Assembly: GCA_023390815.1 (NCBI GenBank)
Contig: JAEWCC010000049.1
Coordinates: 85,741-149,740, forward strand
DNA from: Bacillota bacterium
Lineage (GTDB): Bacteria > Bacillota > Clostridia > Christensenellales > SZUA-584
DNA: 64,000 bases
Direction: 5' to 3'
In this document: piece by piece, positions 6,001-9,000 of the stretch
Numbering within the stretch: position 1 is the stretch's first letter
How the letters are laid out: each line of letters begins with the position of its first letter
Program-made: the position numbers

Positions 6001-9000
6001 ACCGGCAGGAAGCTTTGGTAAAGCCGTTTGGCCTCGACGGTGTTCTCCACGTCGATGAGCCGATACAGCAGCATATCCCCGCCGCGGTAAGGAACGGTAA
6101 AAAGCTCTTTTTTGTAGGCATGGCCGCGTATCAGTATCTTCTTGTCCTTGTCGGGCACATTAATTCCCGGTATCATGCGCGCGATGTTGCGCATGGCCCC
6201 AAAGCCCGTCAGGCTGCGGAATGCGAGGTTGCACCATTTAATAGCACCCGACGGTGTGGTGAGCGCGACCGGAATCGCCATGGTGTTGAGGTATGTAGCC
6301 ATGGCTTCCTCGTTTTCGAGGGTTTTCATCACGAGGCGCTGCCATTTTACTTTTTGAAGAATCCCGAATGTCAGATACAGCGCGCCGAGTGTAATACTGA
6401 TCAGCGTAACGATGACACCCGCGAGGATGCTGAACCAAAACGCCGTACCGACGGCAAGGATCAGGGCACAGCAAAAATAGATGAAGTCCGTAGTAAATAT
6501 GCGAATTTTTCGGCTCAAAAGTCCGCACCCCCCTTCTCCTGGTCACGGCTGCGGAACCGGACGACATTTTCAAAAATGCCCGCCCACATCAGATAACTGC
6601 CAAAGATCAGCACTGTTCCGATATGCATCGCGACCCGAGTACTCTTGCGCAGGCCCCGTTCCTTGTAAAAGTAATCAAGGAAGCTTAGTGCCTGTATCGT
6701 GAATACGAAAGAATATACGCTGCTTATCGTCGGTTCCAGCATGCCGAAAGCCGACAATCCCAGCCTGTCCAGCATGATCGCAGCCAGGTACGATACGATG
6801 AACGCGACCCAAAAATACTTCGGCAATGCGTACTCGCTGAATACGGGTACCAATTTGACCGGTATGCCGCGCCTTGCTGCATAGCGCCGCGGGATGAGAT
6901 AGCAGAGCAATCCCCAAAGCAGCGAATAGATCAGCATCATGATGACGAACGAATAGTTGATCAGTTCGCGCAGCGTTGCCAGCATGGTATCGATGGCTTC
7001 CATACGCGGGGTTGCCAGTACCGCTTCCTGCGTGATCGCACCCAAAAGAACGTCCGGTCCGCGCATCGTCTGATAAACAAAATGGATCTCGCTGTCGCCC
7101 AAAAGCGAGAAAAGGCCGCTGATACGCTGCACTGCGTAATCCGTGGGCGATAGGCCCTTTATCAGCTGCAGCAGGCCCACGCACAGCACAACGCCCGTCA
7201 GTGCAGCGATCGATGAAGCGATCACGCTGTCGCGAAAACGCCATCTTCGCCGGATGGCAATGGCCGCTGTGATCGAAACCGGCGCGAAACCAGCCAAAAA
7301 AGCGGCTGCAGTTGCGGGGCTGAAAACTGCGGCTGCGCCCAAGACCGCAAACCCAAGAACACCGCCTGCGGTGCCGAAGCGCACGATCATATAAATAATG
7401 ACAAGCGGTATGACTAGCGCCGATACGCTGACATACGCCGAAAGGGCGGCCAGCGCGGCTGCGATGAGCAGCCACCCCAGCAGCCCGCTAAAATCTTTTG
7501 CGTTTATCCTGTCCAATACCCCTTATATTCCCGCTTTCAAAATGCTTTCTTAACGAGGATAAATCCCCGTAATCTGTCTCCAGCGTATGGCCTTCCCGTA
7601 TGCCGTCACCGATCTTGCCGATGATGTCCTCATCGATTTCGGCGAACGATATGCCGCATCGGCGGGCCAGCATGTAAGCGAGCAGCACAGTGCCCGCAAG
7701 CGCGTCCAGAAGTTCTCCCCGGCCGTTGGGGGTAAGCCCCGCACGCAGCACATCGGCAGCTTCTCCGATTAGCTCGGATTTCAGTACCTCAATCATCTTC
7801 GCGTTGGAGGCAACGCTGAGCGTTTGATGCATATTTCCACCTCAATTTTTAGTATGCACCCAATCCCCCCAAGTGTCTCTATTCTATCTGTAATATTGGC
7901 AATAGTCAATGATTGCCGCCGTAAGGCTCTCGCGATCCTAACCAAGTACTCCGCCGCGGGAACGGCAACCAGCGTCAGTTTGTATACGGCCCCGCGAATG
8001 CCCAACTATGTGCTATTACAACGGTGTCCACTCTTTCCTCTAACTAAGTGCTCCGCCGCGGGAACGGTAGCCTGCGCCCGTTTGTATACGGCCCCGCGAA
8101 TGCCCAACTATGTGCTTTTACAACGGTGTCCACTCTTTCCTCTAACTAAATGCTCCGCCGCGCAGGCCTGCTGCCAGCATAGTTCTTATATCGCGGGAGC
8201 CGACAGCCAGCGTCAGTCAATATCTCGCGGGACCAAGAGCCAGCGTCAGTTCAAAGTACCTTCCTCGCGAAAGCCGCAGCCATGCATTTGCCGTAACGAT
8301 ATCCACTCCACTTTCCAGCCAAATGCACCGCGGCCTCGCGAGAGCCGTAACAGTTCACAAGTCGTAACGGTATCCACTCATCTCTCCCGCCAACATCACC
8401 GCCGCGGGAGCCAGCAGCCTGCGTTAGTTTGTATACGGCCTCGCGAATGCCGTAGCTGTGAGCATGCCGCAGCGGTATCCACCCTTCTATACGGCAAAGT
8501 GCTCCGCCGCGGGGGTCGGCAGCCGGCGTCAGTTCTTATACGGCCTCGTGAATACCGCAGCTATGTACTTGTCGTAACGGTATTCACCCCTCTTTTCAGC
8601 CAAGTACTCCGCCGCGGGAGCTAAGAGCCAGCGTCACTTCAAAAACAGCTTCGTGAATACCGTTAATGTGAGTATTCCATAACGGTATCCACTCTCCTAT
8701 CCAACCAATATCACCGCCGCGGGAGCCAGCAGCCTGCGCCAGTTTGTATACGGCCTCGCGAATACCCAGCCATGTACTTTTACAACGGCGTCCACTCTTC
8801 TCCCACACTAAGTACTCCTCGAAAAAAAAGCCGCACGCGGAAGCATGCGGCTCTGCGGCACGCTTTTTAAGCGCTGCGGTCCATAATAAGCTTGTCCGCC
8901 ATCAGCGCAATGAATTCGCCGTTGGTCGGCTTGTCGTTGTTGGTATAGATATTATAGCCCAGGAAGGCGTTGATGTTTTCAATCTTTCCGCGGGACCAGG

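What the first reader, a model, noticed from the sequence alone, without database searches (positions are those of the whole stretch)
7942..8822. Degenerate ~103-bp tandem repeats (about 8 units) between the spo0A terminator and the mazG-like/yybS/gdpP/rplI/dnaB operon, each carrying a DnaA-box-like TATCCAC core
- Array: about 880 bp of contiguous ~103-bp units, with the first three unit starts at about 7946, 8049 and 8151. Each unit keeps GCTCCGCCGCGGGA, CAGTTTGTATACGGCC(C/T)CGCGAATGCC and ACGG(T/C)(A/G)TCCAC(T/C)C while diverging elsewhere. Unit 3 carries an internal partial duplication.
- Not coding or CRISPR: The 266-aa ORF across it is only the repeated translation. The array has no unique spacers, so it is not CRISPR.
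- DnaA-box cores: Most units contain GTATCCAC or ATATCCAC, 7 of 9 matches to the DnaA box TTATCCACA with a perfect TATCCAC core. Units 1 and 8 carry the weaker G(T/C)GTCCAC variant.
- Position: It lies directly upstream, on the minus strand, of the operon that ends in the replicative helicase gene dnaB, and directly downstream of spo0A.
- Interpretation: One possibility is a DnaA-titration or DnaA-regulated region, a datA/DARS-like locus, linking replication initiation control to the sporulation and helicase neighbourhood. Another is a tandem sRNA or structured-RNA array. A third is a neutral minisatellite.
Basis: partly seen in the sequence, partly recalled or inferred. Interest (0 to 1): 0.7.

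Follow-up and report, generated by a model that had tools for sequence, protein, structure and literature searches.

The report
Orphan degenerate minisatellite downstream of spo0A
The ~0.9-kb block of ~103-bp tandem repeats is real, but it occurs in only this one uncultured Christensenellales lineage, has no good DnaA boxes, RNA structure or coding signal, and is most likely an ordinary, decaying intergenic minisatellite.

Summary
Window 7938-8822 is a head-to-tail array of eight units of 102-105 bp plus a partial ninth. Unit 3 carries an internal 33-bp duplication and unit 4 is truncated to 71 bp. The array sits between the spo0A terminator and a conserved sigma-A-type promoter of the mazG-like/DUF2232/gdpP/rplI/dnaB operon.

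The DnaA reading fails. No unit has a box within one mismatch of TTATCCACA, and only 4 of 8 are within two. With an experimentally derived B. subtilis DnaA matrix the array ranks 508th of 2525 windows. The TATCCAC core is no better conserved than the rest of the unit.

About 35 related species keep spo0A→mazG synteny, including the closest relatives found (MazG 86-88% identical). Their spacers are short or hold unrelated insertions, with no array and no single proto-unit. I found no relative of the unit in the JGI metagenome or viral contig pattern scans, in plasmids, in phages, or by six-frame translation against 5.8 billion protein clusters.

There is no Rfam hit, no excess folding energy, no convincing covariation, no per-unit promoter or terminator, no codon-phase signal and no 0A boxes.

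Best reading: a lineage-specific, old (units about 60-80% identical, one pair 92%), mosaic minisatellite with no demonstrated function. Interest is low.

The parts
7938..8822 (.). Whole tandem array: eight units of 102-105 bp (two irregular) plus a 14-bp partial ninth unit
   Evidence: TRF, the repeat finder, nhmmer with the unit profile, unit alignment
7938..8141 (.). Units U1 and U2 (102 bp each). They are the youngest pair, 92% identical overall and 98% in the second half. They carry GTGTCCACT, three mismatches from the DnaA box
8142..8319 (.). Unit U3 (178 bp), enlarged by an internal ~33-bp duplication of the CGCGGGAGCC..AGCGTCAGT segment (8187-8250)
8320..8390 (.). Unit U4 (71 bp), truncated: the first half of the unit is deleted
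8391..8705 (.). Units U5, U6 and U7, each exactly 105 bp. They align without gaps at 68-74% identity
8706..8808 (.). Unit U8 (103 bp), a mosaic. Its first half is 94% identical to U5 and its second half is 78-80% identical to U1/U2
8548..8587 (.). Best-preserved copy of the intra-unit inverted repeat GTGAATACCG / CGGTATTCAC (10/10, 20-bp loop). The 'DnaA-box-like' motif is the 3' arm of this repeat. U7 has a 13-bp copy at 8653-8665 / 8680-8692
8819..8854 (-). Intrinsic terminator of spo0A (12-bp stem, T-run). The array begins directly after the T-run
   Evidence: homologous hairpins in relatives
7881..7909 (-). Sigma-70-type promoter TTGACT-17-TAGAAT of the mazG-like/DUF2232/gdpP/rplI/dnaB operon, conserved in relatives, 28 bp from the array edge
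7824..8624 (+). Spurious 266-aa ORF across the array, called as a 256-aa gene (7854-8624) in public annotation. It runs antisense over the operon promoter and start codon
8867..9637 (-). spo0A (Response_reg + Spo0A_C), the upstream neighbour
7488..7832 (-). MazG-like gene, first gene of the downstream operon

Best explanation
The array is a lineage-specific, degenerate intergenic minisatellite. A ~100-bp segment lay in the spacer between the spo0A terminator and the promoter of the mazG-like/DUF2232/gdpP/rplI/dnaB operon. It was amplified head-to-tail by slipped-strand mispairing or unequal recombination. Short inverted repeats inside the unit may have helped this. The array then diverged by point mutation to about 60-80% identity between units. 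It kept being reshuffled by further duplication (U1/U2; the 33-bp sub-repeat in U3), deletion (U4) and recombination or conversion between units (mosaic U8). It has no demonstrable sequence-specific function. Its only certain effect is to move the spo0A terminator about 0.9 kb away from the operon promoter. The DnaA-box-like TATCCAC is one incidental motif of the founding unit that amplification multiplied. What is shown: the anatomy, the restriction to one lineage, and the absence of DnaA, Spo0A, RNA and coding signatures. What is inferred: the mechanism of origin and the lack of function.
For: Structure typical of tandem duplication:
- The copies are contiguous and end in a partial unit.
- Internal sub-duplication, a truncated unit, a young 92% pair and a mosaic unit are all present.

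Lineage restriction:
- About 30 species with Spo0A 85-97% identical keep spo0A→mazG adjacency. Most gaps are 160-300 bp, with no tandem repeats and no hit to the unit profile.
- The closest relatives found by MazG (86-88%) have gaps of about 70-240 bp and no proto-unit.
- In L111 the terminator T-run and the shared GGCGGCAATCATTGACT are 15 bp apart, against about 940 bp here.
- The same spacer holds unrelated insertions in other relatives, such as an RbsD/FucU gene.

No relatives anywhere:
- The viral and JGI metagenome pattern scans gave 0 and only chance hits.
- Plasmids and phages gave no match.
- All six reading frames against 5.8 billion protein clusters matched only the array's own ORF.

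No functional signature:
- DnaA boxes are at background level.
- There is no TGNCGAA 0A box in the array.
- There is no Rfam hit.
- Folding z-scores are about -1.1 for the whole array on either strand and mostly within +/-1.6 per unit.
- There are no compensatory changes beyond one cell.
- No promoter, and only one weak terminator-like match, lies inside the array.
- There is no codon-phase bias, with 13/21/14 changes per phase.
- Conserved columns are not clustered more than in permutations (longest invariant run 6, P=0.13).
Against: - U5-U7 differ at about 30% of positions yet have no indel and keep exactly 105 bp. That is mildly unexpected for drifting DNA.
- The array is 56% G+C, against 44% for other non-ORF DNA in the window.
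- About 0.9 kb of apparently useless DNA has persisted long enough for the units to diverge by about 30%, despite the usual deletion bias of bacterial genomes.
- No strain-level data exist to show copy-number polymorphism. All three contigs that carry the array ORF encode the identical product.
- Absence of recognisable motifs cannot exclude an uncharacterised DNA-binding protein.
Confidence: 0.65

Rival explanations
1. The array is a cis-acting protein-binding array. Each unit would offer a site, either the weak DnaA-box-like GTATCCAC or the inverted repeat GTGRATACCG-N20-CGGTATYCAC. The sites would be phased every 105 bp (about 10 helical turns). They would titrate DnaA or recruit an unknown dimeric regulator upstream of the gdpP-rplI-dnaB operon promoter.
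For: - Motif spacing is regular, and the 105-bp period is kept without indels in U5-U7.
- The motif is part of an inverted repeat that is perfect in U6 and near-perfect in U7.
- B. subtilis DnaA can bind some boxes with 2-3 mismatches in vitro (PMC4447404).
- DnaA-box clusters outside oriC do regulate initiation in B. subtilis (PMC3245932).
- The array lies 28 bp upstream of a conserved promoter.
Against: - There is no box with <=1 mismatch, and position 9 is never A.
- The matrix score of the array is unremarkable, rank 508/2525.
- The inverted repeat is degraded in U1, U2, U5 and U8.
- The motif is not conserved above the unit average.
- The array is absent from all relatives, although they keep the same promoter and operon.
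- No dnaA gene was found among the ORFs I scanned against Pfam, and there is no origin signal in the window. The GC-skew flip only follows gene orientation.
Confidence: 0.12
2. The array is the amplified relic of foreign, mobile or formerly coding DNA that landed in this spacer. Candidates are a MITE-like element with terminal or internal inverted repeats, or a fragment of a repeat-protein gene. This concerns the origin of the founding unit and is compatible with present-day neutrality.
For: - G+C of 56% resembles coding DNA rather than local non-coding DNA.
- The periods are multiples of three: 102, 105 and 33.
- The unit contains inverted repeats.
- The spacer is a recurrent insertion site in the clade.
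Against: - There are no dispersed copies in the roughly 72 kb of this genome that could be read.
- No similarity was found to any plasmid, phage, viral or JGI metagenome contig, or to any protein in six frames.
- There is no codon-phase signal, and the reading frame is inconsistent between units.
- No transposase or integrase gene lies nearby.
Confidence: 0.12
3. The array is a tandem array of small or structured RNAs transcribed from one strand.
For: - The hairpin CGCGGGAGCC/GGCCTCGCG shows G-U-compatible changes on the + strand and one compensatory change in U7.
- The second hairpin folds well in U6 and U7, with z = -2.4 for U7 on the minus strand.
Against: - The wobble patterns of the two hairpins favour opposite strands.
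- Consensus folding energy is only about -12 kcal/mol for 105 nt.
- Whole-array z is about -1.1 on both strands.
- There is no Rfam match, even at E<=10.
- The array has no promoter-like site, only one weak terminator-like match and no per-unit T-run. It lies behind a strong terminator on the minus strand and has no promoter on the plus strand.
Confidence: 0.04
4. The array is an assembly artefact of a short-read metagenome.
For: The source is a metagenome scaffold, and a k=31 assembly breaks inside U1.
Against: - Units differ by 8-40%, and the longest exact repeat is 37 bp, so ordinary read lengths resolve them.
- The independent assembly reproduces the junction into U1 exactly.
- The identical array ORF product is on three contigs.
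Confidence: 0.03

Closest known systems
Bacterial intergenic minisatellites / VNTR loci, e.g. Wolbachia VNTR-105 and VNTR-141 (PMC3287509)
   Same: - Both are intergenic, head-to-tail periods of about 100 bp. VNTR-105 is also 105 bp.
- The period contains short hairpin-forming inverted repeats and a short internal repeat.
- Some periods carry internal deletions.
- Both are restricted to a narrow lineage.
- The proposed origin is slipped-strand mispairing plus recombination between periods.
   Different: - Wolbachia periods are about 98% identical and copy number varies between strains. Here most units are only 60-80% identical, so the array is old or no longer homogenised.
- No strain variation could be examined here.
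DnaA-box clusters outside oriC: E. coli datA/DARS and the six B. subtilis DBCs (PMC3245932, PMC4447404)
   Same: Both are non-coding, carry several DnaA-box-like motifs in one intergenic region, and can lie next to replication or sporulation genes.
   Different: - Known clusters contain several high-affinity or near-consensus boxes, at irregular close spacing. In Bacillus they tend to lie near oriC.
- Here there is no box within one mismatch, box density is at background, there is one weak motif per 105 bp, and the locus is not conserved.
CRISPR arrays
   Same: Both are regularly spaced direct repeats in non-coding DNA.
   Different: There are no unique spacers because the units abut, the unit is about 103 bp rather than 24-48 bp, and no cas genes lie in the neighbourhood.
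Mycobacterial MIRU-type intergenic repeats (from my own knowledge, not checked in a paper here)
   Same: Both are tandem units of roughly 40-100 bp located between genes transcribed in the same direction.
   Different: MIRUs are dispersed at many loci of one genome and often carry short ORFs coupled to the flanking genes. Here there is a single locus in the DNA examined and no consistent ORF.

Membership tests
DnaA-box cluster (datA / DARS / B. subtilis DBC) | Several DnaA boxes at or within one mismatch of TTATNCACA / TTATCCACA | tested here: not met
   0 matches with <=1 mismatch inside 7938-8822, against 15 elsewhere in the window. Only 4 of 8 unit motifs are within 2 mismatches.
DnaA-box cluster (datA / DARS / B. 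subtilis DBC) | Predicted box density or score above the genomic background, using an experimentally derived matrix | tested here: not met
   B. subtilis matrix (PMC4447404 Table S3) at p<=0.0015 gives 5 boxes against 2.7 expected. The summed score ranks 508 of 2525 windows of 885 bp.
DnaA-box cluster (datA / DARS / B. subtilis DBC) | The box is the selectively conserved part of the region, and the locus is retained in relatives | tested here: not met
   5 of the 9 motif positions vary among units, and conservation is not clustered. The array is absent from about 35 related genomes with the same synteny.
DnaA-box cluster (datA / DARS / B. subtilis DBC) | DnaA occupancy in vivo or in vitro | not testable with these tools
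   This needs ChIP-seq, DAP-seq or EMSA with this organism's DnaA.
DnaA-box cluster (datA / DARS / B. subtilis DBC) | Proximity to oriC | tested here: inconclusive
   No dnaA gene among the ORFs scanned against Pfam. The local GC-skew sign change at about 10-11 kb reverses again beyond dnaB and tracks gene orientation. The position of oriC on the 313-kb scaffold is unknown.
Bacterial intergenic minisatellite / VNTR | Contiguous head-to-tail copies of a 10-150-bp unit in non-coding DNA, ending in a partial copy | tested here: met
   The partial ninth unit is at 8809-8822.
Bacterial intergenic minisatellite / VNTR | Signs of ongoing duplication, deletion or recombination between units | tested here: met
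   U1/U2 are 92% identical, there is a 33-bp sub-duplication in U3, U4 is truncated, and U8 is a mosaic.
Bacterial intergenic minisatellite / VNTR | Copy-number polymorphism among strains | not testable with these tools
   Only one genotype is available. The array ORF product is identical on the 3 contigs that carry it, and the second assembly breaks inside the array.
CRISPR array | Short repeats separated by unique spacers; cas genes nearby | tested here: not met
   Units abut without spacers. There are no cas domains among the neighbouring genes.
Tandem sRNA / structured RNA array | Conserved secondary structure with covariation, and its own promoter and terminator | tested here: not met
Spo0A-box cluster | TGNCGAA boxes | tested here: not met
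   None in 7938-8822. Three phased boxes lie upstream of spo0A at 9685-9711 instead.
Repeat-protein gene or pseudogene | One reading frame shared by the units, third-position excess of changes, and homologous proteins | tested here: not met
   The frame differs between U1-2 and U5-8. Changes per phase are 13/21/14. There is no homologue in any of the six frames.
Dispersed REP/MITE-like element | Multiple copies at other loci of the genome | tested here: inconclusive
   There are no other copies in the 64-kb window or in the additional ~1.1 kb of the scaffold that was scanned. The rest of the genome could not be read.

The most novel reading that the evidence does not exclude
The units could be phased (105 bp, about 10 helical turns) low-affinity sites for DnaA or for an uncharacterised dimeric DNA-binding protein that recognises GTGRATACCG-N20-CGGTATYCAC. 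Together they would form a newly evolved, species-specific nucleoprotein platform just upstream of the promoter of the c-di-AMP phosphodiesterase / replicative helicase operon. That would be a datA-like sink or an upstream regulatory array caught early in its evolution.
Probability: 0.07. Interest if true: 0.5.

Novelty: new member of a known kind. Interest (0 to 1): 0.15.

Why it matters
As it stands it matters little. It is one more lineage-specific intergenic minisatellite.

Its practical value is threefold:
- It could serve as a strain-typing marker for this wetland Christensenellales population.
- It is a caution that gene callers have deposited a spurious 256-aa 'protein' from it in public databases.
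- It illustrates that a motif multiplied by tandem duplication must not be counted as independent evidence of a binding-site cluster.

Only if a protein were shown to bind the units would it become an example of de novo birth of a regulatory or titration array next to replication and sporulation genes.

Tried and rejected
- Replication origin or DnaA sink. The cumulative GC-skew minimum near 10-11 kb looked like an origin, but the skew reverses again beyond dnaB and simply follows gene orientation. DnaA consensus and matrix scans put the array at background.
- Spo0A sink. TCGCGAA resembles a 0A box, but there is no TGNCGAA in the array.
- RNA. Rfam at gathering and at E<=10, alifold on both strands, per-unit and whole-array folding against shuffles, and a promoter/terminator scan all came back negative or weak.
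- Coding repeat. Six-frame inspection, a codon-phase test and two protein searches covering all six frames were negative.
- Conservation in relatives. I checked 80 genome loci by Spo0A, then the closest MazG relatives through three contig look-ups. None has the array or a proto-unit.
- Other instances of the unit. A two-block degenerate pattern gave 0 hits in viral contigs and 27 single hits in JGI metagenome contigs, all chance by the unit profile. BLASTN against plasmids and phages gave no match.
- Selective constraint on blocks. Permutation tests of invariant-column clustering were not significant.
- The exact 12-mer AACGGTATCCAC at 26761 lies inside a lipoprotein gene with no extended similarity. 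I judged it chance.
- The B. subtilis Ter/RTP site, cre, Rex, LexA, and sigma-F/G/E/K promoter consensus sequences were compared by eye from memory only. None fitted, and I did not pursue them.
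Full report
**What is there**

Reading window 7500-9300, Tandem Repeats Finder, the repeat finder and a profile HMM built from the regular units all agree. Window 7938-8822 is one uninterrupted head-to-tail array.

| Unit | Coordinates | Length | Note |
|---|---|---|---|
| U1 | 7938-8039 | 102 bp | |
| U2 | 8040-8141 | 102 bp | |
| U3 | 8142-8319 | 178 bp | enlarged by a ~33-bp internal duplication at 8187-8250 |
| U4 | 8320-8390 | 71 bp | first half deleted |
| U5 | 8391-8495 | 105 bp | |
| U6 | 8496-8600 | 105 bp | |
| U7 | 8601-8705 | 105 bp | |
| U8 | 8706-8808 | 103 bp | |
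| U9 (partial) | 8809-8822 | 14 bp | start of a ninth unit |

- Pairwise identity is 92% for U1/U2 and 56-80% for the other pairs.
- U8 is a mosaic. Its first half is 94% identical to U5 and its second half 78-80% to U1/U2.
- The unit occurs nowhere else in the 64-kb window.
- The longest exact repeat inside the array is 37 bp.
- An independent k=31 assembly of the same run reproduces the junction into U1 exactly. It then breaks inside that 37-mer. The repeat is therefore real and resolvable.

**Setting**

The window is identical to part of a 313-kb metagenome scaffold, ENA ERZ28599064, LEMO22-1 scaffold_14. Its relatives are MAGs labelled Christensenellaceae or Christensenellales.

On the minus strand the order is as follows:
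- spo0A, 8867-9637
- a strong intrinsic terminator, stem 8854-8827 plus T-run
- the array
- 28 bp of spacer
- a sigma-70-type promoter TTGACT-17-TAGAAT, 7909-7881
- a conserved leader
- the MazG-like gene (7488-7832), then DUF2232, gdpP, rplI and dnaB

The array therefore lies in DNA that should be largely untranscribed.

**Comparative evidence**

A Spo0A-seeded scan of one genome per species returned 80 loci.
- About 30 of them have Spo0A 85-97% identical and keep spo0A directly followed by the MazG-like gene.
- Their gaps are usually 160-300 bp.
- None has a tandem repeat there or any hit to the unit profile.
- Eight have larger gaps (562-1547 bp) holding unrelated material. Four of them carry an RbsD/FucU gene on the opposite strand.

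A MazG-seeded protein search found nothing between 88% and 100% identity. The three closest relatives (86-88%) have gaps of about 70-240 bp, with the same terminator hairpin and promoter but no array. In L111 the terminator T-run is 15 bp from the shared GGCGGCAATCATTGACT, against about 940 bp here.

Searches for the unit elsewhere were all negative:
- A degenerate two-block pattern gave no viral hit.
- The same pattern gave 27 single hits in JGI metagenome contigs, all chance by the profile.
- BLASTN against plasmids and phages found nothing.
- The called ORF across the array, and then the other five reading frames, have no relative among 5.8 billion protein clusters other than the ORF itself.

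The array is an orphan confined to one lineage.

**The DnaA hypothesis**

- No 9-mer in the array is within one mismatch of TTATCCACA, although 15 such sites occur elsewhere in the window.
- Only U3, U4, U5 and U7 are within two mismatches. U1, U2 and U6 have three and U8 has four.
- The motif always ends in T or C, whereas 135 of 150 experimentally bound B. subtilis boxes end in A (PMC4447404, Table S3).
- I scored the window with that matrix at the authors' p<=0.0015. The array has 5 predicted boxes against 2.7 expected.
- Its summed score ranks 508th of 2525 windows of the same size. Denser spots lie at about 12.0 kb (885-bp windows) and about 25.1 kb (300-bp windows).
- A random 103-bp unit of this composition contains a two-mismatch box 20% of the time. 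The multiplicity is therefore a by-product of amplification and not independent evidence.
- Within the motif, five of nine positions vary among units.
- Invariant columns are not clustered beyond permutation expectation (longest run 6, P=0.13; lag-1 autocorrelation P=0.07).
- The apparent GC-skew minimum near 10-11 kb is not an origin. The sign reverses again beyond dnaB and follows gene orientation.
- Known DnaA-box clusters carry high-affinity boxes and, in Bacillus, tend to lie near oriC (PMC3245932).

These are absence from relatives and a core that is not preferentially conserved. DnaA enrichment could not be tested.

**Other functional readings**

Spo0A:
- There is no TGNCGAA in the array.
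- Three 10-bp-phased boxes sit upstream of spo0A instead.

RNA:
- There was no Rfam match at gathering scores or at E<=10.
- RNAalifold gives about -12 kcal/mol on either strand, with a single compensatory cell.
- Each unit contains two overlapping imperfect inverted repeats, CGCGGGAGCC/GGCCTCGCG and G(C/T)GAAT(A/G)CCG/CGGTAT(C/T)CAC. The second is perfect in U6.
- The wobble-compatible changes favour the plus strand for the first repeat and the minus strand for the second. That fits decaying DNA palindromes rather than one selected RNA.
- Per-unit z-scores run from +1.45 to -2.43, and the whole array scores -1.1 on both strands.
- No promoter-like site lies inside the array, and the only terminator-like match there is weak.

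Coding:
- The 266-aa ORF changes frame relative to the unit between U1-2 and U5-6.
- It runs antisense over the operon promoter.
- It shows no codon-phase bias, with 13/21/14 changes per phase.

**Interpretation**

The anatomy is that of a minisatellite created and remodelled by slipped-strand mispairing and unequal recombination. The features that point this way are:
- contiguous units and a terminal partial copy
- a sub-duplication, a truncation, a young pair and a mosaic unit
- restriction to one lineage
- a location in a spacer that has accepted different insertions in sister species

The closest described analogue is Wolbachia VNTR-105. That locus is an intergenic 105-bp period with two short hairpins and periods bearing internal deletions, and it was explained in the same way (PMC3287509). 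It differs in that its periods are about 98% identical.

Some points do not sit perfectly with pure drift:
- U5-U7 have no indels despite about 30% divergence.
- G+C is 56%, against 44% for other non-ORF DNA in the window.
- About 0.9 kb of such DNA has persisted.

These points keep a small probability on an uncharacterised protein-binding role or a foreign or coding origin of the founding unit.

**Verdict**

- The DnaA-centred and RNA readings are not supported.
- Novelty: a new member of a known kind.
- Interest: low.

Noticed in passing
window 9685-9711 (+), upstream of the spo0A start at 9637 (-): Three Spo0A boxes (TGCCGAA, TGACGAA, TGTCGAA) are spaced exactly 10 bp apart in the spo0A upstream region, as expected for autoregulation. 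The same triple pattern is present in the closest species-level relative, L002 (3929-3955).
   Followed up: partly
window ~7833-7880 (-); aligned in L002, L003, L004, L033, L111-L113: The 5' leader of the mazG-like/DUF2232/gdpP/rplI/dnaB operon (GACACTTGGGGGGATTGGGTGCATA, between the -10 box and the ribosome-binding site) is almost invariant in close relatives whose MazG-like protein is about 77-88% identical. It is better conserved than the coding sequence, which suggests an unrecognised regulatory element.
   Followed up: partly
window ~25050-25420: This is the densest 300-bp cluster of predicted DnaA boxes in the window: 8 by the B. subtilis matrix, including ATATCCACA at 25122. It also has 0A boxes at 25139 and 25173. 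It lies in the divergent intergenic region between an AAA_5-like gene (24034-25107, -) and a transglutaminase-like gene (25373-26545, +). There is no dnaA nearby.
   Followed up: partly
window ~27171-27195 and ~27412-27436: Two copies of a hairpin sequence, AGCCGCATCACGTAA(A/G)(A/G)AATGCGGC, flank a G+C-rich non-coding segment of about 210 bp just upstream of rtcB (27479-28711, -). There was no Rfam match at E<=1.
   Followed up: partly
L018, L019, L025, L036 (an RbsD/FucU gene on the opposite strand); L009 (1.5-kb insert with a DUF6034-like ORF); L021, L024, L032 (about 570 bp): The spo0A-mazG spacer is a recurrent site of unrelated insertions across this clade, whereas the flanking terminator and promoter are kept.
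   Followed up: partly
window 7854-8624 (+); protein P0001: Public annotations (ENA, NCBI) carry a 256-aa 'protein' called across the repeat array. It has no homologues and is almost certainly spurious.
   Followed up: yes
window 1-12000 and L082 9000-21000: The spo0A-to-dnaB block is a local island of inverted GC skew inside a region whose + strand is otherwise G-rich. The skew tracks gene orientation here, so cumulative-skew minima in this genome should not be read as origins without more sequence.
   Followed up: partly
window 26761-26772 (+): There is an exact copy of the 12-mer AACGGTATCCAC from the repeat unit inside a serine/threonine-rich lipoprotein-like gene (26653-27102, -). There is no extended similarity, so I judged it coincidental.
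   Followed up: yes
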